Made by a program: the position numbers and the translations under genes. A stretch of DNA of 24,000 bases, taken from NCBI GenBank assembly GCA_017459565.1, contig JAFUCP010000084.1, positions 19,716 to 43,715 on the forward strand, in the 5' to 3' direction. Positions 4,487 through 18,159 of the stretch are shown here, one piece after another. Within the stretch, counting starts at the first letter, position 1. Each line of letters opens with the position of its first letter. This DNA comes from Clostridia bacterium. GTDB lineage: Bacteria > Bacillota > Clostridia > Christensenellales > Aristaeellaceae. Under the pieces are notes generated by a model. It worked only from the letters and a program-made list of their open reading frames with translations, ran no database searches and was not told the DNA's origin.

Positions 4487-5404
4487 TCATTCCTCGCCCG
4501 AATCGCCGCGTTCGCCCAGCGGCATGGCCTCCAGCGCGAAGTCCCGGAAGGCGGCCTGCTCCGGCGTGAGATACTTTTTCTTGTGGACAAAATACAGGTG
4601 GTAGGGCATGGTTCCCTCCAGGGGAAAGGCCAGCAGCCTGCCATCGGCCACGTCCTCGCGAACGGCCACCTCTGAAATCACGGAGATGCCCACGCCGGAG
4701 GCCACCAGGCGCTTGATGCTCTCGGTATCGTCCACGGCGGACACGACCTTCAGCTTGAGCTGCGGAATATACAGCTTTGACCAGCGCAGGAATTCCTGTT
4801 GCAGCGTGGAGGTGCTGCTCCGGGTGATCAACGGCTCTTCACCAAACAGCGCGTTGGGAAAAATCTGGCCGTGCAGCGCCTGGAAGCGCGCTTCGTTGGG
4901 CGCGATCACCACGAGGTTGGCCATGGCGTAATGCCTGACGGCATAGTCGGAATCCATCAGCTTTGTGGTGCAAAAGGCAAATTCCGTGCCGTCTGATTGC
5001 AGGCGGGAATAGATTTCCGAATGGTTGCAGGTGATGAAATTGAAGCTGACTTGCGGGTGCTGAGCGCAGAATCGGATCACCAGGTCCGTCAGATAATAGC
5101 GCACGATGTAGGGCGTCGCCACGATGTTCACGGATTTCGCGTCCCGGTTCGCGCAGCTGAGGGCAAAAATGCTGTCCCGGTTCAGCTTGAGCATCTGCCG
5201 GGCATATTCATAAAAGGTGCGCCCGTCCTGGCTCAGCTCCATACTGCGGGTGGTTCGGTTCAGAAGGCGCGTGCCCAGCTCCGTCTCCAGCTTGCGAATG
5301 TGAATCGTCACCATGGACTGGGAAAGCTGCAGCCGCTCGGCGGCGTTGGAGAAGCTGCCCTCGTCCACGGCGGCAACAAAGGATTCCAGTTGCTTGAAGT
5401 CCAT
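4487..5404 (-). CDS. LysR-family transcriptional regulator
   Basis: 305 aa. The N-terminal wHTH MDFKQLESFVAAVDEGSFSNAAERLQLSQSMVTIHIRKLETELGTRLLNRTTRSMELSQDG is the canonical LTTR signature, and a C-terminal substrate-binding domain follows. SD is acaggagaacgatcggATG. Confidence 0.9.
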   Translation of the reverse strand: MDFKQLESFVAAVDEGSFSNAAERLQLSQSMVTIHIRKLETELGTRLLNRTTRSMELSQDGRTFYEYARQMLKLNRDSIFALSCANRDAKSVNIVATPYIVRYYLTDLVIRFCAQHPQVSFNFITCNHSEIYSRLQSDGTEFAFCTTKLMDSDYAVRHYAMANLVVIAPNEARFQALHGQIFPNALFGEEPLITRSSTSTLQQEFLRWSKLYIPQLKLKVVSAVDDTESIKRLVASGVGISVISEVAVREDVADGRLLAFPLEGTMPYHLYFVHKKKYLTPEQAAFRDFALEAMPLGERGDSGEE

Positions 5405-5504: not shown

Positions 5505-6140
5505 TCAGACCATCCTGCGCTTGATATCCGAAATCAGTATGTCCCCCACCACCGTGCGATCCTCCGCCGAGAAGGCCTGGGGAAAGTTATCGGAAAATAA
5601 AATCTGGCTGTTGGGCGGGAATTCGTCGTCCCCCTCCCACACGATCAGCCGCACATCGTAGCCGGGCATGATTTCCAGCTGGTACGCGGCATCCCCCTGC
5701 CTGAGGGGAATGACCGGCAGCTGCTCCGCCGCCCGGGCGAAGGCATCCAGCCGCGGCCCAAAGGCAAAGGCGGCCCGCGTCAGACAGCGGCCCGTGAAGG
5801 GCTTCAGATACACCTCGCCCCATGGCATCTCCCGGTAGGGCAAAAAGACGCCCGTGCCCACGGAGCGCCGGCCCTCCAGCAGATAGCGGATCAGCAGCAT
5901 CTGGGCCGGCAGGTTTGTCAGTGCAAAGCCCGTTTCATCGGCGCTGCCGATGGCGAATTTGGGCCACGCGATCTGATAGTCCACATACAAAAGGCGCACG
6001 GTAAACAGTCCCGTCCCGCCATCAAATTTCACGCCGCAGCGCTGCGCCGCCTCGACGGGGTCCAGTTTTTCAAACAGCGCGGTATAATGCTCAAAGGGCA
6101 CCATTTCCTTGTGATTTTCCACGTTTCGCATCGAAAACAA
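5505..6140 (-). CDS. Conserved hypothetical protein, DUF3786-like (family recalled as often linked to corrinoid/acs loci)
   Basis: 211 aa, starting 18 nt downstream of the ferredoxin gene (coupled) with SD gggagaggttgttttcgATG. The family assignment is from memory of DUF3786-type sequences and has not been verified. Confidence 0.5.
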   Translation of the reverse strand: MFSMRNVENHKEMVPFEHYTALFEKLDPVEAAQRCGVKFDGGTGLFTVRLLYVDYQIAWPKFAIGSADETGFALTNLPAQMLLIRYLLEGRRSVGTGVFLPYREMPWGEVYLKPFTGRCLTRAAFAFGPRLDAFARAAEQLPVIPLRQGDAAYQLEIMPGYDVRLIVWEGDDEFPPNSQILFSDNFPQAFSAEDRTVVGDILISDIKRRMV

Positions 6141-12049: not shown

Positions 12050-12069
12050 GGAGGCGCTTGTGCGCCTCC
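12050..12069 (-). other. Perfect 8-bp hairpin (GGAGGCGC-ttgt-GCGCCTCC) in the cooC-acsD spacer
   Basis: Read directly from the sequence. It touches the cooC stop codon and has no U-tail. Confidence 0.4.
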
Positions 12070-12842
12070 TAAAGTTTAAGGTCCTCCATGATTGATTTCA
12101 GCGCGGCCTTCACCGGGGCGTCATCTGGTACCTTGGCGCTGGGCTTGCCTTCGCAGTCGTACTCATAGACGGTATCGTCCTGCGGCAGCACGCCCGCCAG
12201 CTCCAGTCCGTGCTTTTCAATCTCTTCCTTAACCCCGTCGTTCAGGCTGCCGCCCGGCGCGCGGTTAACGATCAGCTTCATGGTGCCGGGCTTCAGCTCC
12301 AGCGCGTTCACCATTTCGGCGATGCGCGCAGCGGCCTGGATGCCCCGGCGGGAGCAGTCGCTGATGAGCAGGAGCGTATCCACATGCGGCAGCGTGCCGC
12401 GGGCGATATGCTCCATGCCGGCCTCATTGTCGATCACCATATACCCATATCGGCCGTAATACTTGTCGATCTGCGTCTTGAGGACGCCGTTGACATAGCA
12501 ATAGCAGCCCTTGCCCTCCGTACGGCCCATCACCAGCATGTCGAAATCGTCCTCTTCGATCAGCGCGGTGTTGAACTTGTACTCGGCATACTCCTGCTTG
12601 GTCATGCCGGCGGGGATGGGGCTGACAGGCATAAGCTCCGCATGGGCCATTTCCTCGCGGATGGAGCCCAGCGTGGTCTCCACCTCGACGCCCAGCACCT
12701 CGTTCAGGTTGGAGTTGGCGTCCGCGTCCACCACCAGCAGAGGGCCCTTGCCCTTTTGGGTCAGATATTCGATGATCAAGCCGCAGGTGGTCGTCTTTCC
12801 GACGTCGCCCTTGCCGGCCACAGCGATGACATGTGTTGACAT
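12069..12842 (-). CDS. cooC: CooC/AcsF-type nickel-insertion ATPase for CODH/ACS
   Basis: 257 aa. It has a deviant Walker A (AVAGKGDVGKTTTCG) and the metal-bridging C-x-C motif (GKGCYCYVNG). SD is cgaggaaaacaATG. Confidence 0.9.
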   Translation of the reverse strand: MSTHVIAVAGKGDVGKTTTCGLIIEYLTQKGKGPLLVVDADANSNLNEVLGVEVETTLGSIREEMAHAELMPVSPIPAGMTKQEYAEYKFNTALIEEDDFDMLVMGRTEGKGCYCYVNGVLKTQIDKYYGRYGYMVIDNEAGMEHIARGTLPHVDTLLLISDCSRRGIQAAARIAEMVNALELKPGTMKLIVNRAPGGSLNDGVKEEIEKHGLELAGVLPQDDTVYEYDCEGKPSAKVPDDAPVKAALKSIMEDLKL

Positions 12843-13952: not shown

Positions 13953-13976
13953 GATAAAAAGGATTCTCATATCCTC
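13953..13976 (-). terminator. Weak terminator-like stem (AGGAU-augaga-AUCCU + UUUUUAU) overlapping the stop of the 75-aa ORF
   Basis: The stem is only 5-6 bp, but a clear U-run follows on the minus strand. Confidence 0.3.
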
Positions 13977-14194
13977 GTGAAGAGAAACCTCTGTCTGAGG
14001 CCGCTCAGGCTGACAAACACGGTGAGGTTATCCGAATCCTTCTGTTCCACGGTCAGCTCGTCCGGCATTTCACCGAGAAGGCCTTTGACATAGCCCACCG
14101 GGTCGTCGGTCTCGATCTCATCGAAAAAAACATCCCGCATTTGATTGCCGGAGCAGCTGTTCTGTATCTCACGCACCACTTCGTATTCCGCCAT
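13967..14194 (-). CDS. Small acidic hypothetical protein (75 aa)
   Basis: Track ORF 13967..14299 trimmed to the ATG at 14194, which is preceded by AAGGAGGG. Sequence MAEYEVVREIQNSCSGNQMRDVFFDEIETDDPVGYVK..., with 15 D/E versus 7 K/R. I recognise no family. Confidence 0.55.
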   Translation of the reverse strand: MAEYEVVREIQNSCSGNQMRDVFFDEIETDDPVGYVKGLLGEMPDELTVEQKDSDNLTVFVSLSGLRQRFLFTRI

Positions 14195-14332: not shown

Positions 14333-14533
14333 TCAGGCCAGCGCCGCCCTGGGGCGCACCACCACCGTGCCGCCGGTCAGATCGGCCAGCGCGATTTCGC
14401 CCTCAATGACCTCTTCCCGGCCCATGATATCGGTCAACGTGATCACGCCGTCCTTCGTCTGGATGAGCATGACGTTTTTCAGCACTTCGTTTTCAGGCTT
14501 TTTTTCAATTTTGTACACCGTTGAAAGGCACAT
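14333..14533 (-). CDS. cooT: CooT-family nickel-binding chaperone
   Basis: Track ORF trimmed to the ATG at 14533 (SD gagaggagatatagacagATG); 66 aa. MCLSTVYKIEKKPENEVLKNVMLIQTKDGVITLTDIMGREEVIEGEIALADL... has the N-terminal Met-Cys2 and the size and beta-rich pattern of CooT (PF10133 type). Confidence 0.8.
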   Translation of the reverse strand: MCLSTVYKIEKKPENEVLKNVMLIQTKDGVITLTDIMGREEVIEGEIALADLTGGTVVVRPRAALA

Positions 14534-14537
14534 CTGT

Positions 14538-15032
14538 CTATATCTCCTCTCTGGCAATGTCCAATGCCCGCAGCACCGTGGACAGGCGCATGTTTCCCTT
14601 TTCAAAATCTGACACCGCCTGCAGCACCTGCTCAGAGGCGATGACATCCCCCACGTCCCTGAGCCTTCCCGCCAGCTGCGCCAGCTCGTTGGCGTGGGCA
14701 GCGTTGTGGTTGACCATGTACTGCATCAGCGCTATGATCTCGGTCCGCGGGTCCACGCCACAGCCATCGCAGTCGGAGTTACAGTGCGCCGCACCCGGGC
14801 AGCCCTGGGGATGCTCATGGGGATGGGCATGGGTGTGTTCATGGGCGTGGGCATGGGTCGTGCCGTCGGCATGGGTATGCTCATGGCTGTGGACATGGGT
14901 ATGCTCGTGTTCGTGTCCTTCGCCGCTTTCCCGGGCGGGCTCACCGGTATGCGGATGGTTTTCGCCGTGGGCATGGTGGTCGTGGGCGATCCCATGCTCG
15001 TGCATATATTCATGGCTGTGTTCGTGATCCAT
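14538..15032 (-). CDS. Extremely His-rich / Cys4 metal-binding protein with a helical C-terminal domain (putative Ni/Co storage or chaperone)
   Basis: ATG at 15032 (SD gaaaggatgtttgaagATG); 164 aa. I count 28 His in the first 83 residues (MDHEHSHEYMHEHGIAHDHHAHGENHPH...GHEHEHTHVHSHEHTHADGTTHAHAHEHTHAHPHEH). Next comes C78-x5-C84-x3-C88-x2-C91, then about 70 aa of helical sequence with HNAAHANELAQLA. Its stop lies 4 nt before the cooT ATG. Confidence 0.8.
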   Translation of the reverse strand: MDHEHSHEYMHEHGIAHDHHAHGENHPHTGEPARESGEGHEHEHTHVHSHEHTHADGTTHAHAHEHTHAHPHEHPQGCPGAAHCNSDCDGCGVDPRTEIIALMQYMVNHNAAHANELAQLAGRLRDVGDVIASEQVLQAVSDFEKGNMRLSTVLRALDIAREEI

Positions 15033-15075
15033 CTTCAAACATCCTTTCAAAACGATTCTGCTTCGTCCCCATCAG

Positions 15076-15104
15076 ATTATACAACAGTCCGCCGGGTTTG
15101 TCAA
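15076..15104 (-). promoter_or_regulatory. Exact-consensus sigma-A promoter (TTGACA-17-TATAAT) for the His-rich protein/cooT operon
   Basis: Minus-strand reading: TTGACA (15104-15099), spacer aacccggcggactgttg, then TATAAT (15081-15076). The spacer holds a G/C tract flanked by ACAA/TTGT arms (15081-15101), a weak candidate operator. Confidence 0.6.
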
Positions 15105-15234
15105 AATCTTCGACTTGGGCGGTCCATTCCCAAATTCCCGGCGGGACCGCGGTTCCGGGCAAATCACCCATCCCCTGCCCGGGGTTTCCAATCAAAAATT
15201 CCATCATTCTTTACCTGGCGGGCGGAATGAAGGA

Positions 15235-15283: not shown

Positions 15284-15646
15284 ATGAACCGAGACGATCA
15301 CAGCCACGCCCATCCCGAGGGAATGGATCACGAATACATGCACGCCCACGGCATCCCCCACAGCCACGAACACGGGCATACCCACACCCACGAGCATACC
15401 CGGGCCGTGCTGAACCGGCTGTCCAGGGCCATCGGGCACCTGCAATCCGTGCGCACCATGGTGGAGGAGGGGCGCGACTGCTCCGAGGTGCTGGTGCAGA
15501 TTGCCGCCGTGCGCTCCGCCATCGACAATACCGGCAAGCTGATATTGCAGGATCATTTGAAGCACTGCATTGTGGACGCCGCCCACGAGGGCGACCAGAA
15601 GGCCATCGACGATCTGTGCGAGGCCATCGACAAGTACATGAAATGA
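15284..15646 (+). CDS. CsoR/RcnR (DUF156) family metal-sensing repressor with a His-rich N-terminal extension (InrS-like)
   Basis: ATG at 15284; 120 aa. The core LNRLSRAIGHLQSVRTMVEEGRDCSEVLVQIAAVRSAIDNTGKLILQDHLKHC gives the C66 / H91-x3-C95 ligand pattern. The first 38 residues contain 13 His. Confidence 0.85.
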   Translation: MNRDDHSHAHPEGMDHEYMHAHGIPHSHEHGHTHTHEHTRAVLNRLSRAIGHLQSVRTMVEEGRDCSEVLVQIAAVRSAIDNTGKLILQDHLKHCIVDAAHEGDQKAIDDLCEAIDKYMK

Positions 15647-15686: not shown

Positions 15687-16319
15687 CTATACGATCCTGC
15701 GGATATGCTCGTGGCTTTCGCCGGTGATCCAGTCCACGTCGTCGGTCAGCCAGTCCATGATCTCCAGCTGCCGCGTCTCCCAGGCGATGGTGTCCTGCTT
15801 TTCCTGCTCCGTCATCTCCCGGTCGAAGGCCTTCACCTTTTCGCAGTAGCCGAAGATGTATCCCGCGCCGTACCAGATGGTGAAATTGCTGTCCGGGCCC
15901 TCTGAGACGGCGTCACCCCGGGCGGCGATCAGCCCGTCGTGGCGGCGCTTGTATTCCTCCGCGCAGCCGGGTTTGAGCTTCGTGACGAACACGCGATGCC
16001 GGATCAGGGATTTGTCCGCACGCACGATGCCGATATCGTGGTACATCAGCCGCATACTGCCCGTAGGGCAGAGCAGCTCCGCGCTGCCGTCGATCACGCG
16101 CTCCAGCAACTCGCGCAATTCAGGGGCCGCGTCCAGATCCGTGTCCCTGGCATATTCCCCGTATCCGCAGAGTATGTCCGATACGCTCCAGACGGAGAAG
16201 TTTCCCACGCCGAGACGCTCCGCCTCCTCCAGAATCCTCGGCGCAAGCTCTGAAATCCCTTGCAGCACCGCCTCGCGCCTGTCAGGGTTTATCTTCATCA
16301 AAAAGGTCTTGCGTTCCAT
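15687..16319 (-). CDS. Tandem L-rhamnose-mutarotase-like (RhaM/DUF718-type alpha+beta barrel) protein
   Basis: 210 aa built from two repeats. Each opens like RhaM (RKTFLMKINPDRREAV... and HRVFVTKLKPGCAEEYKRRHD...NFTIWY), compared with E. coli RhaM [21 protein letters not shown]...NYAIY recalled from memory. Confidence 0.5.
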   Translation of the reverse strand: MERKTFLMKINPDRREAVLQGISELAPRILEEAERLGVGNFSVWSVSDILCGYGEYARDTDLDAAPELRELLERVIDGSAELLCPTGSMRLMYHDIGIVRADKSLIRHRVFVTKLKPGCAEEYKRRHDGLIAARGDAVSEGPDSNFTIWYGAGYIFGYCEKVKAFDREMTEQEKQDTIAWETRQLEIMDWLTDDVDWITGESHEHIRRIV

Positions 16320-16354: not shown

Positions 16355-16834
16355 TCACGCGTCCCCGTCCCTGAGCGACTTCAGATACGGCACCGCCCTG
16401 TCGCCGTCCAGAACAAGCTCCGCATAGCAGCCGTCCATCAGCGCGCCGGGATTGATCAGCAGCACACTGCCCGACATCTCCACGCAGGGGCGGTGGGTGT
16501 GCCCGAAGAGCGCAATGTTCGCGCCCTGCTCCTCGGCGAAATAAGAAAGCCTGTCGTAGCCGTACTTCACATCCTGCAAATGGCCATGTACCGCCAACAG
16601 CCTGTGGCGTCCGCAGGACCAGAGCGCCATGCGCGGCTGCTGGGAAAACATGTCGCAGTTGCCGGCCACGGCGATCACCGGCATCTCAAGCCGGCGTTCA
16701 AGCCAGCGGGCGTCGGAATGATAATCGCCCAGGTGAAAGACCGCGTCGTACTTCTCCCGTTTGCACCTTTCCAGCCAACACGCCAGCCAGCTTTCCCGGT
16801 CGTGGCTGTCGGAAACGATGCCCAGCCGCGTCAT
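16355..16834 (-). CDS. YfcE/MJ0936-family metallophosphoesterase (YsnB-like)
   Basis: 159 aa with the motifs GIVSDSHD, HLGD, GNCD and GHTH. Its ATG overlaps the upstream stop (ATGA at 16831-16834). Confidence 0.85.
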   Translation of the reverse strand: MTRLGIVSDSHDRESWLACWLERCKREKYDAVFHLGDYHSDARWLERRLEMPVIAVAGNCDMFSQQPRMALWSCGRHRLLAVHGHLQDVKYGYDRLSYFAEEQGANIALFGHTHRPCVEMSGSVLLINPGALMDGCYAELVLDGDRAVPYLKSLRDGDA

Positions 16835-18159
16835 GTCTCCTCCTCCAGCGCGTCCAGCAGCTTCGCAATGGCTCGGGCGCGGTGGGACACGCCGTTCTTC
16901 GCCTCCGGGTCCGCCTCGGCAAAGGTCACGCCGAGGTCGTCAGACAAAAACAGCGGGTCATAACCGAAGCCGCCGGTTCCCCGGTATTCGCCGATGATCT
17001 CCCCATCGCAGCGGCCATAGACGGTCACGGGCTCCCGTCCGGGCCTGCACAGCGCCACCGCCGCGCCATAGTGCGCCCTGTGGGGGGCGGGCTTGTCCGC
17101 AAGCTCGCTGAGCAGCAGCCGGTTGTTGGCCTCGTCGTCGCCATGGACGCCGCAGTAGCGGGCGGAATGGACACCGGGACGCCCGTCAAGCTGATCCACG
17201 CACAGGCCGGAATCGTCCGCCAGCGTGGCGCAATGGCAGATATCCATGAGGGCCTGCGCCTTGATAAGCGCGTTTTCCTCAAAGGTCTCGCCCGTCTCCT
17301 CCACGTCCAGCGTCACGCCCATGTCCCGCATGGAGCGCACATCGAAGCGTTCGCCCAGCAGCTGCCGCAGCTCCTTCAGCTTGCCGAAGTTGTTGCTGGC
17401 AAGGGCCAGCAGAGGCTTTTTGCAAATGACCTCCGCGCGGCTTCCCAGCGCGTCGCGCTGCGCCTGCATAAGCTCCAGGCAGCCCTTTTCCCCCAGCGCC
17501 AGCAGCGTGTCCAGCTCCGCCTTGGTATAACAGCGCCCCTCGCCGGTACCCTGCACCTCCACAAAGCCGAGCCGGCCCTTGGCGTCGCGCGTCATGACCA
17601 CGTTCATATCCACCTGTGCGCGGCTGTCCTGGGCATATTCCAAATCGAGGGTACACACATCGTCGATCACGCCCACGGACACCGCGGCCACCTGGCGGAT
17701 GACGGGCGAATCCGGCAGCGTGCCCTCCTGCATCAGCTTGTCCACGGCGATGCACAGCGCGGTGAACGCGCCGGTAATGGAAGCCGTCCGCGTGCCTCCG
17801 TCGGCCTGGATTACGTCGCAATCGATGTAAACCGTGCGCTCCCCCAGCCGGGTCAGATCACAGGCCGCGCGCAGGGAGCGCCCGATCAGCCGCTGGATCT
17901 CCACGCCGCGCCCGTCCTTCTTCACGCCGTCCCGAGCCTTGCGCTGAGGCGTGGAGCCGGGCAGCATGGCATACTCCGCCGTGAGCCAGCCCTTCCCCTT
18001 GCCCTTCAAAAAGCCGGGCACCCCCTCCTGTATGGAGGCGGTGCAGATGACCTTTGTCCTGCCGCAGCAGATCAGCACAGAGCCCGCGGCCATCTCGGTA
18101 TAGTCCGGCAGTATCCGCACCATGCGCAGCTCGTTGGCCGCGCGATTGATCGCTTCCAT
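16831..18159 (-). CDS. rph: Fusion protein: RNase PH (N-terminal ~240 aa) + RdgB/HAM1 non-canonical purine NTP pyrophosphatase (C-terminal ~200 aa)
   Basis: 442 aa. The N-terminal part has AGSVLICCGRTKVICTAS...GWLTAEYAMLPGST...DCDVIQADGGTRTASITGA (RNase PH). The C-terminal part has LALASNNFGKLKELRQLL...TFEENALIKA...ADDSGLCVDQLDGRPGVHSARY...GFGYDPLF (RdgB). SD is gaaggaggaatacccATG. Confidence 0.9.
   Translation of the reverse strand: MEAINRAANELRMVRILPDYTEMAAGSVLICCGRTKVICTASIQEGVPGFLKGKGKGWLTAEYAMLPGSTPQRKARDGVKKDGRGVEIQRLIGRSLRAACDLTRLGERTVYIDCDVIQADGGTRTASITGAFTALCIAVDKLMQEGTLPDSPVIRQVAAVSVGVIDDVCTLDLEYAQDSRAQVDMNVVMTRDAKGRLGFVEVQGTGEGRCYTKAELDTLLALGEKGCLELMQAQRDALGSRAEVICKKPLLALASNNFGKLKELRQLLGERFDVRSMRDMGVTLDVEETGETFEENALIKAQALMDICHCATLADDSGLCVDQLDGRPGVHSARYCGVHGDDEANNRLLLSELADKPAPHRAHYGAAVALCRPGREPVTVYGRCDGEIIGEYRGTGGFGYDPLFLSDDLGVTFAEADPEAKNGVSHRARAIAKLLDALEEET

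What the first reader, a model, noticed from the sequence alone, without database searches (positions are those of the whole stretch)
14538..15032. Extreme His-rich + C-x5-C-x3-C-x2-C protein with a conserved-looking helical tail: an uncharacterised metallochaperone type
The (H-x)n tracts make up about one third of the first 83 residues. They are followed at once by four closely spaced Cys and a roughly 70-aa helical domain (IIALMQYMVNHNAAHANELAQLAGRLRDVG...FEKGNMRLSTVL). The His tract is N-terminal, unlike the C-terminal tails of CooJ and SlyD, and the protein has no GTPase domain, unlike HypB. From memory, similar small Clostridia proteins carry uninformative labels such as 'cobalt transporter', although they have no TM segments. 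The translational spacing to cooT (4 nt) suggests a stoichiometric partnership.
Basis: partly seen in the sequence, partly recalled or inferred. Interest (0 to 1): 0.65.

Follow-up and report, generated by a model that had tools for sequence, protein, structure and literature searches.

The report
CooJ-like nickel helper protein (DUF8180)
This small histidine- and cysteine-rich protein belongs to a large uncharacterised family (Pfam DUF8180) that almost always sits directly in front of the nickel-binding protein CooT in anaerobic gut bacteria, so it is most likely a nickel-handling helper for the CO2-fixing enzymes encoded beside it; it is probably a variant of the known helper CooJ and not an entirely new kind of protein.

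Summary
A 164-aa ORF lies on the minus strand (14538..15032). It has 28 His in its first 83 residues, then C78-x5-C84-x3-C88-x2-C91, then a roughly 70-aa tail. cooT follows 4 nt downstream.

The tail is the defining domain of Pfam DUF8180 (PF26551). The family has no published function and NCBI labels it 'cobalt transporter', although it has no TM segment. AlphaFold2 predicts the tail as an alpha-hairpin (pLDDT 94). H109 and H113 are invariant; N110, E116 and N147 are at least 96% conserved. E98, Y105, H109, H113 and E116 lie on one helix face.

At least 585 species genomes carry a relative. Every fetched locus with enough flanking DNA has cooT beside it, apart from methyltransferase fusions. 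Usually cooC and the CODH/ACS genes follow, often downstream of a divergent CsoR/InrS-type metal sensor.

Best reading: a nickel buffer and donor that works with CooT and CooC, functionally like CooJ but with the His tract at the N-terminus. Neither sequence nor fold searches link it to RrCooJ (6HK5), and it does not match CooJ's motif exactly.

A His-rich 'hp' next to CooT in C. autoethanogenum was knocked out in 2023, and N-terminal-tract CooJs were described in 2026.

The parts
14538..15032 (-). His/Cys-rich DUF8180 protein, 164 aa, ATG start, stop codon included
   Evidence: ORF list and translation. Homologues at 60-78% identity carry the precomputed Pfam PF26551 = DUF8180. The start codon is supported by alignment A3.
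14808..15032 (-). N-terminal His-rich region (aa 1-75, 27 His). Its length is hypervariable among relatives.
   Evidence: Composition. In alignment A3 the tract ranges from absent (P0097, 70 aa) to about 90 aa. Among 107 complete 50%-cluster representatives, 60 have at least 5 His N-terminal to the domain.
14976..15014 (-). N-terminal motif HEYMHEHGIAHDH (aa 7-19), shared with the N-terminus of the divergent CsoR-family regulator
   Evidence: Conserved as HEYMH-x-H-(G/N)-I-x-H in the window's clade. The regulator has DHEYMHAHGIPHSH. Nearly all 63 neighbouring regulators carry Y(L/M)H-x-HGI-x-H.
14823..14909 (-). aa 42-70, HEHTHVHSHEHTH-ADGT-THAHAHEHTHAH: predicted beta-hairpin that places alternating His on one face, with the turn at ADGT
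   Evidence: AlphaFold2 gives strands 42-53 and 59-70, with block pLDDT up to 92. The motif H-T-H-A-D-G-T-T-H recurs in many relatives. This is a prediction only.
14760..14801 (-). Cys cluster C78-x5-C84-x3-C88-x2-C91
   Evidence: Positions. Each Cys is at least 90% conserved in the close clade. It is present in only 33 of 107 diverse representatives, so it is accessory. The model has low confidence here.
14547..14753 (-). DUF8180 core domain (aa 94-162): antiparallel two-helix hairpin
   Evidence: AF2 helices 95-126 and 130-162. The domain-only model has pLDDT 94.1 and pTM 0.75. Conservation comes from A1, 69 diverse sequences.
14685..14708 (-). Candidate metal site H109-N110-x2-H113-x2-E116. 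H109 and H113 are invariant; N110 and E116 are 99% conserved.
   Evidence: Alignment A1. On a helical wheel, E98, Y105, H109, H113 and E116 fall on one face. N147 (96% conserved) lies opposite H109 in the hairpin (the positions are inferred from the hairpin register).
14333..14533 (-). cooT (66 aa, Met-Cys2), 4 nt downstream
   Evidence: PF10133, E 7.5e-17. cooT is adjacent to DUF8180 in 80 of 80 unique pairs, and Cys2 is present in all 80.
13967..14194 (-). Conserved 75-aa ORF of unknown function after cooT
   Evidence: Homologous ORFs follow cooT in most of loci L001-L084. No Pfam hit.
12069..12842 (-). cooC/acsF-type ATPase carrying a C-Y-C motif, in the same gene string
   Evidence: CbiA, AAA_31 and ArsA Pfam hits. 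The sequence contains GKGCYCYV. It is syntenic in most loci.
15076..15104 (-). Consensus sigma-70-type promoter TTGACA-17-TATAAT upstream of the DUF8180 ORF
   Evidence: 12 of 12 hexamer positions match. TT(G/T)ACAAA ... TATAAT is conserved in related intergenic regions.
15170..15184 (.). GC-rich inverted repeat ATCCCCTGCCCGGGG, resembling a CsoR-family operator, between the divergent genes
   Evidence: CCC(C)-N-GGGG(A/T)T is present in 31 of 52 unique regulator|DUF8180 intergenic regions, against 0.5 expected from shuffles. It usually ends about 20 nt upstream of the -35 hexamer. Binding by the regulator is inferred.
15284..15646 (+). Divergent CsoR/RcnR-family metal-sensing repressor with a His-rich N-terminal extension and C-x24-H-x3-C ligands
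   Evidence: PF02583, E 2e-27. Sequence GRDC...DHLKHC. Present divergently upstream in 63 of 84 loci.

Best explanation
The gene encodes a soluble cytoplasmic nickel-binding accessory protein of the DUF8180 family. It probably works as the first link of a CooJ-like / CooT / CooC relay that supplies Ni to acetyl-CoA synthase and CODH.

Proposed mechanism (all inferred unless marked shown):
1. The core is a two-helix hairpin. It probably dimerises into a four-helix bundle.
2. The invariant H109 and H113, with E116, N110, N147 and perhaps Y105 and E98, line one face of the hairpin. They would form a defined metal site at the subunit interface.
3. The variable N-terminal H-x-H tract acts as a high-capacity, lower-affinity Ni(II) reservoir. 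The C-x5-C-x3-C-x2-C knot provides a thiolate-rich, higher-affinity or transfer site.
4. Ni is then handed to CooT (Cys2 site), encoded 4 nt downstream, and to the CooC/AcsF-type ATPase (C-x-C site) for insertion into the enzymes.
5. Expression is probably de-repressed by metal through the divergent CsoR/InrS-type sensor, which carries the same N-terminal His motif.

Shown here: the composition, the conservation pattern, the predicted fold, the near-obligate synteny with cooT and cooC, and the conserved operator-like repeat.

Inferred: Ni as the metal, dimerisation, the order of transfer and the regulation.
For: - Family and conservation: homologues carry PF26551/DUF8180. H109 and H113 are invariant across 69 diverse sequences, and N110, E116 and N147 are at least 96% conserved.
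- Fold: a confident helical hairpin, with the conserved polar residues on one helix face.
- Synteny: cooT follows immediately in 80 of 80 unique pairs from species-level genomes, with a median gap of 14 nt and Cys2 always present.
- The same pairing occurs in the about 40%-identical Blautia-type subfamily, ahead of cooC-cooS-cooC-acsB, and in L090 and L094.
- The pairing is kept in non-acetogen clusters that also hold a CooC-like ATPase and a CdhC-domain protein.
- A CobW-type GTPase-DUF8180 fusion is followed by cooT.
- The window's CooC has the C-x-C motif.
- A divergent CsoR-family regulator and a conserved operator-like repeat are present.
- Literature: CooT binds Ni via Cys2, and CooC, CooT and CooJ are needed for CODH activity at low Ni in R. 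rubrum (PMC6006190).
- Literature: clostridial CooJs with an N-terminal His-rich region (preprint).
- Literature: deleting the His-rich hp or the CooT gene in C. autoethanogenum lowered ACS and CooS1 protein 1.5-1.8 fold and changed growth (PMC10230548).
Against: - No metal binding has been measured for any DUF8180 protein.
- Profile searches against PDB sequences find no CooJ (6HK5) at E up to 10, even with HW engineered into the profile. I had no positive control showing that 6HK5 is in the copy searched.
- Foldseek returns only generic hairpins, with E at least 0.49.
- The regulator's C-H-C ligand set is also the classic Cu(I)-CsoR set, so the metal could be Cu, Co or Zn.
- About 20 of the 84 loci carry only the regulator, DUF8180 and cooT, with no ACS genes downstream. 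A methyltransferase-fused subfamily shows no called cooT in the short sequence downstream. The domain is therefore not strictly tied to CODH/ACS.
- In C. autoethanogenum extra Ni did not change the CooT-mutant phenotype, and growth on minimal medium was unaffected.
- CsoR-type de-repression at high metal fits a buffer at least as well as a delivery factor.
Confidence: 0.6

Rival explanations
1. A general metal buffer, store or detoxifier. Together with CooT, the protein soaks up excess Ni (or Co, Zn, Cu) when the CsoR-type sensor is de-repressed. It protects the cell and does not deliver metal to a specific enzyme.
For: - CsoR/RcnR/InrS-family repressors are released by metal excess and normally switch on efflux or sequestration genes (established knowledge).
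- The regulator | DUF8180-cooT module stands alone in about 20 loci. In L043, for example, it is followed by Fur-family and rubrerythrin genes.
- The His tract is hypervariable in length, as expected for a capacity function.
- The C. autoethanogenum mutants showed defects in rich medium, not in minimal medium.
Against: - The invariant H-N-x2-H...E hairpin is kept even in 67-80-aa members with no His tract. Bulk binding is therefore not the conserved function.
- The pair nearly always comes with a CooC-type insertion ATPase and a Ni enzyme.
- Blautia-type loci have no adjacent sensor.
Confidence: 0.2
2. A regulatory partner. The protein acts as a metal-dependent modulator of the CsoR-type repressor, or of Wood-Ljungdahl gene expression, for example by exchanging metal with the sensor through the shared N-terminal His motif.
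For: - The motif HEYMH-x-HGI-x-H is shared between the regulator and DUF8180 in the window's clade.
- The arrangement is divergent, with a conserved operator-like repeat.
- Deleting hp changed the levels of AcsB, AcsE, AcsD and CooS1.
Against: - Many DUF8180-cooT loci lack the regulator (21 of 84).
- Most family members lack the shared motif.
- hhalign finds no relation between the hairpin and CsoR (probability 10.6%).
- The protein-level changes in the mutants are small and are also explained by unstable apo-enzymes.
Confidence: 0.08
3. An Fe-S or redox protein. The C-x5-C-x3-C-x2-C motif binds a [4Fe-4S] or [2Fe-2S] cluster, and the protein serves as a scaffold or carrier for building the A- or C-cluster.
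For: - The C-x3-C-x2-C spacing is that of classic [4Fe-4S] ligands (established knowledge).
- All four Cys are at least 90% conserved in the close clade.
- One variant replaces the His tract with a FeoB-associated Cys-rich membrane domain (P0081), and another is fused to a NifX-like domain (P0125).
Against: - Only 33 of 107 diverse representatives keep at least 3 Cys before the domain.
- The segment has low-confidence, loop-like structure.
- There is no Pfam Fe-S domain.
- A short CxxCG(C) motif is also a known high-affinity Ni site in E. coli HypB (own knowledge).
Confidence: 0.05
4. A cobalt transporter, as annotated in NCBI records.
For: The only support is the database label on several homologues.
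Against: - There is no hydrophobic segment: the maximum KD-19 score is 0.35 and GRAVY is -0.91.
- The only Pfam transporter hits are insignificant ZIP matches driven by the His tract (E 0.49).
- The model is a soluble hairpin.
Confidence: 0.01

Closest known systems
CooJ (R. rubrum CODH accessory protein, PDB 6HK5; Alfano et al. 2019, recalled from memory; motif as quoted in preprint 10.64898/2026.03.10.710785)
   Same: - A small protein encoded next to cooT and cooC.
- One His-rich disordered region plus one roughly 65-70-residue helical hairpin.
- In the first helix a His-x3-His pair is followed by Glu: H109-x3-H113-x2-E116 here. From memory, R. rubrum CooJ has the same spacing; this was not checked against its sequence.
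- Some distant DUF8180 members even have the third His (H-M-x2-H-x3-H in P0417, P0247 and P0209).
- Clostridial CooJs with an N-terminal His-rich region are reported.
   Different: - The first motif position is Tyr in 88% of the family and the second is Met, not the 'strictly conserved' H(W/F).
- The His tract is N-terminal.
- There is an extra four-Cys cluster.
- The gene order is DUF8180 then cooT, not cooT then cooJ.
- No sequence or ranked structural similarity to 6HK5 was detected.
Hp (CAETHG_1604 / LABRINI_07945) of Clostridium autoethanogenum, partner of the CooT-family Nbp (PMC10230548)
   Same: - A His-rich hypothetical protein of about 113 aa beside a CooT gene at the edge of the C1-fixing cluster.
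- It is highly expressed, and homologues are said to accompany Wood-Ljungdahl genes in several acetogens.
- The sgRNA target encodes ..EEGFAE.., which resembles the DUF8180 helix-2 motif EGV(A/S)(E/D)F.
   Different: - The order there is nbp then hp, deduced from the primer sequences.
- I could not obtain the Hp sequence, so membership in DUF8180 is unverified. No C. autoethanogenum hit appeared.
HypB N-terminal CxxCGC high-affinity Ni site, and the His stretches of HypB, SlyD, UreE and Hpn (own knowledge)
   Same: His-rich tracts serve as Ni reservoirs, and a short Cys cluster serves as a tight Ni site in a maturation factor.
   Different: There is no GTPase, FKBP or UreE domain. Here the conserved core is a helical hairpin.
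InrS / CsoR / RcnR metal sensors (this comparison concerns the neighbouring regulator)
   Same: - PF02583 fold.
- C-x24-H-x3-C ligand spacing.
- A His-rich N-terminal extension like that of InrS.
- A GC-rich inverted repeat as the putative operator.
   Different: The regulated genes are not an efflux pump but a putative chaperone pair. The metal specificity is untested.

Membership tests
Pfam DUF8180 (PF26551) | Significant match to the family model or domain | tested here: met
   The local Pfam copy lacks PF26551. However, 120 of the 120 listed homologues of the tail (E down to 1e-38, 60-80% identity) carry a precomputed PF26551 hit. The gene tables name it DUF8180.
Pfam DUF8180 (PF26551) | Conserved core motif Y-M-x2-H-N-x2-H-x2-E-L ... 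F-x-K-G-N-x2-L | tested here: met
   The window protein has Y105, M106, H109, N110, H113, E116, L117, F143, G146, N147 and L150. H109 and H113 are invariant in A1.
CooJ | Strictly conserved H(W/F)-x2-H-x3-H Ni-binding motif | tested here: not met
   The sequence is Y105-M106-x2-H109-x3-H113. Tyr occupies the first position in 88% of the family and Met the second in 88%. Only rare members have His first.
CooJ | His-rich tail at the C-terminus (R. rubrum definition) | tested here: not met
   The tract is N-terminal. A 2026 preprint accepts N-terminal tracts in clostridial CooJs.
CooJ | Detectable sequence similarity to RrCooJ (6HK5) | tested here: not met
   Profile searches of PDB sequences with A1 and with the HW-engineered A4 return no CooJ at E up to 10. 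I had no positive control that 6HK5 is in the copy searched.
CooJ | Helical hairpin that forms a coiled-coil dimer with an interfacial Ni site | tested here: inconclusive
   A monomeric hairpin is predicted confidently. 6HK5 is not among the top 50 Foldseek hits, all of which are non-significant generic hairpins.
CooJ | Encoded beside cooT and cooC in a CODH/ACS context | tested here: met
   Window gene order, 80 of 80 related loci, and Blautia-type loci with cooS.
HypB / CobW-type metallochaperone GTPases | P-loop GTPase domain | tested here: not met
   No cobW or HypB Pfam hit in the window protein. A separate fusion protein, P0152, does have one.
CsoR/RcnR (as the fold of the C-terminal tail) | Profile similarity to PF02583-type proteins | tested here: not met
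   hhalign of A1 against 54 neighbouring CsoR sequences gives probability 10.6% over 19 columns.
Metal transporter ('cobalt transporter' label) | Transmembrane segments | tested here: not met
   The maximum 19-residue hydropathy is 0.35. The ZIP hit has E 0.49 and lies in the His tract only.

The most novel reading that the evidence does not exclude
DUF8180 is not simply 'CooJ of Firmicutes'. It would be the conserved core of a portable three-part nickel-insertion module (DUF8180 + CooT + CooC-type ATPase). That module would serve several Ni enzymes, including an undescribed one in non-acetogens. This enzyme would be built from a stand-alone CdhC (A-cluster) domain protein, a BcrAD-type activase and two HGD-D proteins (L092, L093).

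In the window's lineage the module would be wired to an InrS-like sensor that carries the same N-terminal His motif as the chaperone, so that sensor and buffer are tuned to the same metal activity.
Probability: 0.25. Interest if true: 0.7.

Novelty: new variant of a known kind. Interest (0 to 1): 0.45.

Why it matters
How nickel reaches the A-cluster of acetyl-CoA synthase and the C-cluster of CODH in acetogens is still unclear. The roles of CooT and CooJ are described as unresolved (PMC6006190).

This family is present in at least 585 species-level genomes, many from gut and rumen Clostridia. It is nearly always fused in an operon to cooT and sits at the head of Wood-Ljungdahl clusters. That gives a concrete and abundant candidate for the missing nickel donor, with two invariant histidines to mutate.

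It would also correct a widespread misannotation ('cobalt transporter') and give Pfam DUF8180 a testable function. This is relevant to gas-fermentation strain engineering, where heterologous CODH/ACS often matures poorly.

Tried and rejected
1. Pfam and NCBIfam scans of the whole protein and of the tail gave no significant family, because the local Pfam copy lacks PF26551.
2. phmmer and profile searches against PDB sequences found nothing significant. The best hit was a weak PhoU match (1xwm, E 0.22, or 0.009 with an engineered profile). I treat it as helical-hairpin noise, because Pfam PhoU did not hit.
3. Foldseek with the full-length model and with the domain-only model returned only generic hairpins: Snf7, Rop, rubrerythrin and ferritin halves, ESAT-6.
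4. I tested whether the tail is CsoR-like. hhalign rejected this.
5. I tried to obtain a real CooJ sequence for direct comparison. The Alfano 2019 paper is not held. The CooJ sheet of the eLife supplement is truncated. The preprint has no supplements held as text. A plasmid search with CooS found only Acetoanaerobium and R. albus records, and the Acetoanaerobium locus has no cooT or DUF8180 near cooS.
6. I tried to prove that C. autoethanogenum Hp is a DUF8180 member. The cluster look-up gave no names. A metagenome scan with the primer-derived sequence found nothing. The third protein search returned no C. autoethanogenum hit. This remains unresolved.
It succeeded with 11 sequences.
8. The 'cobalt transporter' reading was rejected, because there is no TM segment.
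Full report
**1. The observation**

The reported interval holds a minus-strand ORF, 14538..15032, with an ATG start and 164 aa. Thirty residues are His, and 28 of them lie in the first 83 residues (34%). The Cys residues sit at 78, 84, 88 and 91, which gives the reported C-x5-C-x3-C-x2-C. The tail IIALMQYMVNHNAAHANELAQLAGRLRDVG...FEKGNMRLSTVL is present as described.

cooT (PF10133, E 7.5e-17) starts 4 nt after the stop codon and has its own GAGGAG ribosome-binding site inside the last codons of the His-rich ORF. The protein has no hydrophobic segment: the highest 19-residue hydropathy window is 0.35 and GRAVY is -0.91. The only addition is that the gene lies on the minus strand.

**2. Surroundings**

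The gene heads a minus-strand string:
- the His-rich protein, then cooT, then a conserved 75-aa ORF;
- MTHFR, then a cooC/acsF-type ATPase with a C-Y-C motif;
- acsD, acsC, acsE and acsB (ACS), then DUF3786;
- further down, a LysR regulator, fhs and fchA.

A perfect TTGACA-17-TATAAT promoter lies at 15104..15076 on the minus strand.

Transcribed divergently at 15284..15646 is a CsoR/RcnR-family repressor (PF02583, E 2e-27). It has C-x24-H-x3-C ligand spacing and a His-rich N-terminal extension. That extension contains DHEYMHAHGIPHSH, nearly the same motif as residues 7-19 of the target, HEYMHEHGIAHDH.

**3. The family**

- The tail alone finds 3374 protein clusters at 90% identity with E at most 1e-3. 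All 120 listed carry a precomputed Pfam PF26551 hit, which the gene tables name DUF8180.
- My local Pfam copy does not contain that model, which explains the empty scans.
- An exhaustive HMMER search finds 334 clusters at 50% identity.
- NCBI calls several members 'cobalt transporter'. No paper in the library mentions PF26551 or DUF8180.
- In an alignment of 69 diverse domains, H109 and H113 are invariant. N110, E116, L117, N147 and L150 are at least 91% conserved. Y105 and M106 are each 88% conserved.
- The N-terminal parts are accessory. Among 107 complete representatives, 60 have at least 5 His before the domain, 33 have at least 3 Cys just before it, and 21 have both. Some members are the bare domain, 66-80 aa long.
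- Within the window's own clade the four Cys are each at least 90% conserved, and the His tract varies from 0 to about 90 residues.

**4. Structure**

AlphaFold2 predicts helices 95-126 and 130-162 with pLDDT above 90. The domain-only model has mean pLDDT 94.1. The fold is a simple antiparallel hairpin.

On a helical wheel, E98, Y105, H109, H113 and E116 share one face. By the hairpin register, N147 lies opposite H109. This polar stripe sits within the conserved face of a helix that has two hydrophobic stripes. That is the pattern expected for a metal site buried at the interface of a dimeric four-helix bundle. This step is inference; no multimer tool was available.

Residues 42-70 (HEHTHVHSHEHTH-ADGT-THAHAHEHTHAH) are predicted as a beta-hairpin that would display a ladder of His on one face, with block pLDDT up to 92. 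The Cys cluster is modelled with low confidence.

Foldseek against the PDB gives no significant match for either model. The best E is about 0.5, and the hits are Snf7, Rop, rubrerythrin and ferritin halves, and ESAT-6. Profile searches against PDB sequences are also empty. hhalign shows no relation to the neighbouring CsoR family (probability 10.6%).

**5. Genomic association**

A scan of one genome per species found at least 585 genomes with a relative. The best 80 are Clostridia and Oscillospiraceae, mostly gut or rumen MAGs.

- In all 80 unique pairs, cooT follows directly. The median gap is 14 nt, the gap is at most 40 nt in 76 of 80, and CooT Met-Cys2 is present in 80 of 80.
- Of the 84 loci examined, 63 have the divergent CsoR-family gene. 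Most continue with the 75-aa ORF, with or without MTHFR, then cooC, acsD, acsC, acsE and acsB.
- About 20 loci carry only regulator | DUF8180-cooT. In L043 this module is followed by Fur-family and rubrerythrin genes.

The pairing holds in subfamilies only about 40% identical to the window's domain:
- Blautia-type loci read DUF8180-cooT-cooC-cooS-cooC-acsB.
- L090 reads DUF8180-cooT-cooS-cooC-acsB.
- L094 reads RACo-DUF2284-DUF8180-cooT-cooC-acsDCE-acsB.

It also holds outside acetogenesis. Butyrivibrio sp. VCB2006 (L092) has DUF8180 and cooT beside a CooC-like ATPase and HGD-D proteins. L093 adds a BcrAD-type activase and a 243-aa protein that passes the Pfam CdhC threshold.

Fusions exist with a CobW-type GTPase (followed by cooT, L098), an ABC ATPase, ZnuA, a NifX-like domain, CobU and a methyltransferase. 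The methyltransferase fusion is the one context where no cooT was seen.

**6. Regulation**

A GC-rich inverted repeat of the CsoR-operator type, CCC(C)-N-GGGG(A/T)T, occurs in 31 of 52 unique regulator|DUF8180 intergenic regions, against 0.5 expected in shuffles. In the window it is ATCCCCTGCCCGGGG at 15170..15184. It usually ends about 20 nt upstream of the -35 hexamer of the DUF8180 promoter and abuts the -35 in a few loci.

Nearly all the neighbouring regulators carry Y(L/M)H-x-HGI-x-H and an H-x-H-x-H-E-(N/H) run just before helix 1. With C...H...C, this gives an InrS-like H-C-H-C ligand set. This comparison rests on my own knowledge of the family. Metal-dependent de-repression is therefore likely, but the metal is not established, because C-H-C alone is the Cu(I)-CsoR signature.

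**7. Mechanism**

I commit to a nickel buffer-and-donor role with confidence 0.6. In this model the hairpin dimer holds one defined site built from H109, H113 and E116. The His tract stores several Ni(II) ions, and the Cys cluster gives a thiolate-rich transfer site. Ni then passes to CooT (Cys2) and to the CooC-type ATPase (C-x-C), and from there into ACS/CODH.

The supporting logic is the near-obligate three-way synteny across deep divergence, together with the known Ni chemistry of the partners (PMC6006190). The main rival, at 0.2, is a non-specific buffer or detoxifier under a metal-excess sensor. Smaller rivals are a regulatory partner, an Fe-S carrier, and the annotated 'transporter', which the sequence refutes.

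**8. Comparison with known systems**

*CooJ.* The closest system is CooJ. The shared features are small size, a position next to cooT and cooC, one His-rich region plus one helical hairpin, and an H-x3-H-x2-E face. The CooJ motif is quoted as -HWXXHXXXH-, and DUF8180 has Y-M-x2-H-x3-H. A few members have His in the first position (P0417, P0247, P0209).

A 2026 preprint reports clostridial CooJs with the His-rich region at the N-terminus, and says CooJ is hard to recognise by sequence. A 2026 eLife paper finds manually assigned 'potential CooJ' together with CooT in clade-E CODH operons tied to one-carbon metabolism. Those may well be DUF8180 proteins, but the list was not readable.

Against membership:
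- the 'strictly conserved' H(W/F) is not met;
- the tract is at the other end from RrCooJ;
- the gene order is reversed;
- neither profile nor fold search reaches 6HK5.

I therefore describe it as working like CooJ and probably being a distant relative, but I do not file it as a CooJ member.

*C. autoethanogenum Hp.* A His-rich hypothetical protein ('hp', about 113 aa) lies beside the CooT gene ('nbp'). It is highly expressed, and deleting it gave growth and product changes and 1.5-1.8-fold lower AcsB and CooS1 (PMC10230548). The primer table shows the order nbp then hp, an Hp N-terminus MNNEHE.., and an sgRNA target encoding EEGFAE, which resembles the DUF8180 helix-2 motif. I could not confirm identity.

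**9. Verdict**

The feature is real, and it is correctly read as a metal-handling partner of CooT. It belongs to an already catalogued but functionally blank family (DUF8180). It is best seen as a new variant of the CooJ kind of nickel accessory protein, with an extra Cys cluster and, in this lineage, a dedicated CsoR/InrS-type sensor.

Novelty is moderate, because related proteins have been noticed and one probable relative has been knocked out. The value lies in the strength of the comparative evidence and in the clear mutational targets.

Noticed in passing
L093:2708-8147 and L092:832-5591: In non-acetogen contexts, one of them Butyrivibrio sp. VCB2006 (L092), DUF8180 and cooT sit with a CooC-like ATPase and two or three HGD-D (PF06050) proteins. 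L093 also has a BcrAD/BadFG activase and a 243-aa protein that passes the Pfam CdhC (ACS A-cluster domain) threshold at 24.8 bits against a cut-off of 24. This may be an undescribed nickel enzyme system.
   Followed up: partly
window 15284-15646 (+), with 14976-15014 (-): The divergent CsoR-family repressor and the His-rich protein share an N-terminal motif, (D/H)-H-E-Y-M-H-x-H-G-I-x-H-x-H. Nearly all 63 neighbouring regulators carry Y(L/M)H-x-HGI-x-H. Why a sensor and its target would share a metal-binding tail is unexplained.
   Followed up: partly
window 15170-15184: A conserved CsoR-operator-like inverted repeat, ATCCCC-N5-GGGG, occurs in 31 of 52 related intergenic regions. It usually ends about 20 nt upstream of the -35 hexamer and does not overlap the core promoter. 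In the window it ends 65 nt upstream of the -35.
   Followed up: partly
window 13967-14194 (-): A 75-aa ORF (MAEYEVVREIQNSCSGNQ...) follows cooT. It is conserved at this position in most related loci and has no Pfam hit.
   Followed up: no
L098:281-1167; L096:5001-5777; L099:27-923; proteins P0125, P0182, P0227: The DUF8180 domain is found fused to several partners: a CobW-type GTPase (then followed by cooT), a SAM methyltransferase (5 contigs, next to SpoIIE, no cooT seen), an ABC ATPase, a NifX-like domain, the N-terminal half of ZnuA, and CobU. Some of the single-contig fusions may be assembly or frameshift artefacts.
   Followed up: partly
window 14521-15027 (+), 14694-15230 (+), 14732-15013 (-): Long 'shadow' ORFs overlap the His tract in other frames and on the other strand. 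They arise because the CAY/GAR-rich repeat has no stop codons. Some database 'homologues' (P0121, P0126: MNTTMRIRMSIPIP...) are out-of-frame translations of the same tract joined to the real domain.
   Followed up: no
window 16831-18159 (-) and 15687-16319 (-): Upstream of the regulator lie a 442-aa RNase PH-Ham1 (dITP/XTP pyrophosphatase) fusion protein and a 210-aa protein with a weak rhamnose-mutarotase-like domain. The same neighbours occur in L004.
   Followed up: no
window 5505-6140 (-) and 4487-5404 (-): A DUF3786 protein and a LysR-family regulator lie between acsB and the fhs/fchA genes of the Wood-Ljungdahl cluster. No CODH (cooS/acsA) gene was found among the minus-strand ORFs scanned between 630 and 16834; the ORFs beyond 18200 were not scanned.
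   Followed up: no
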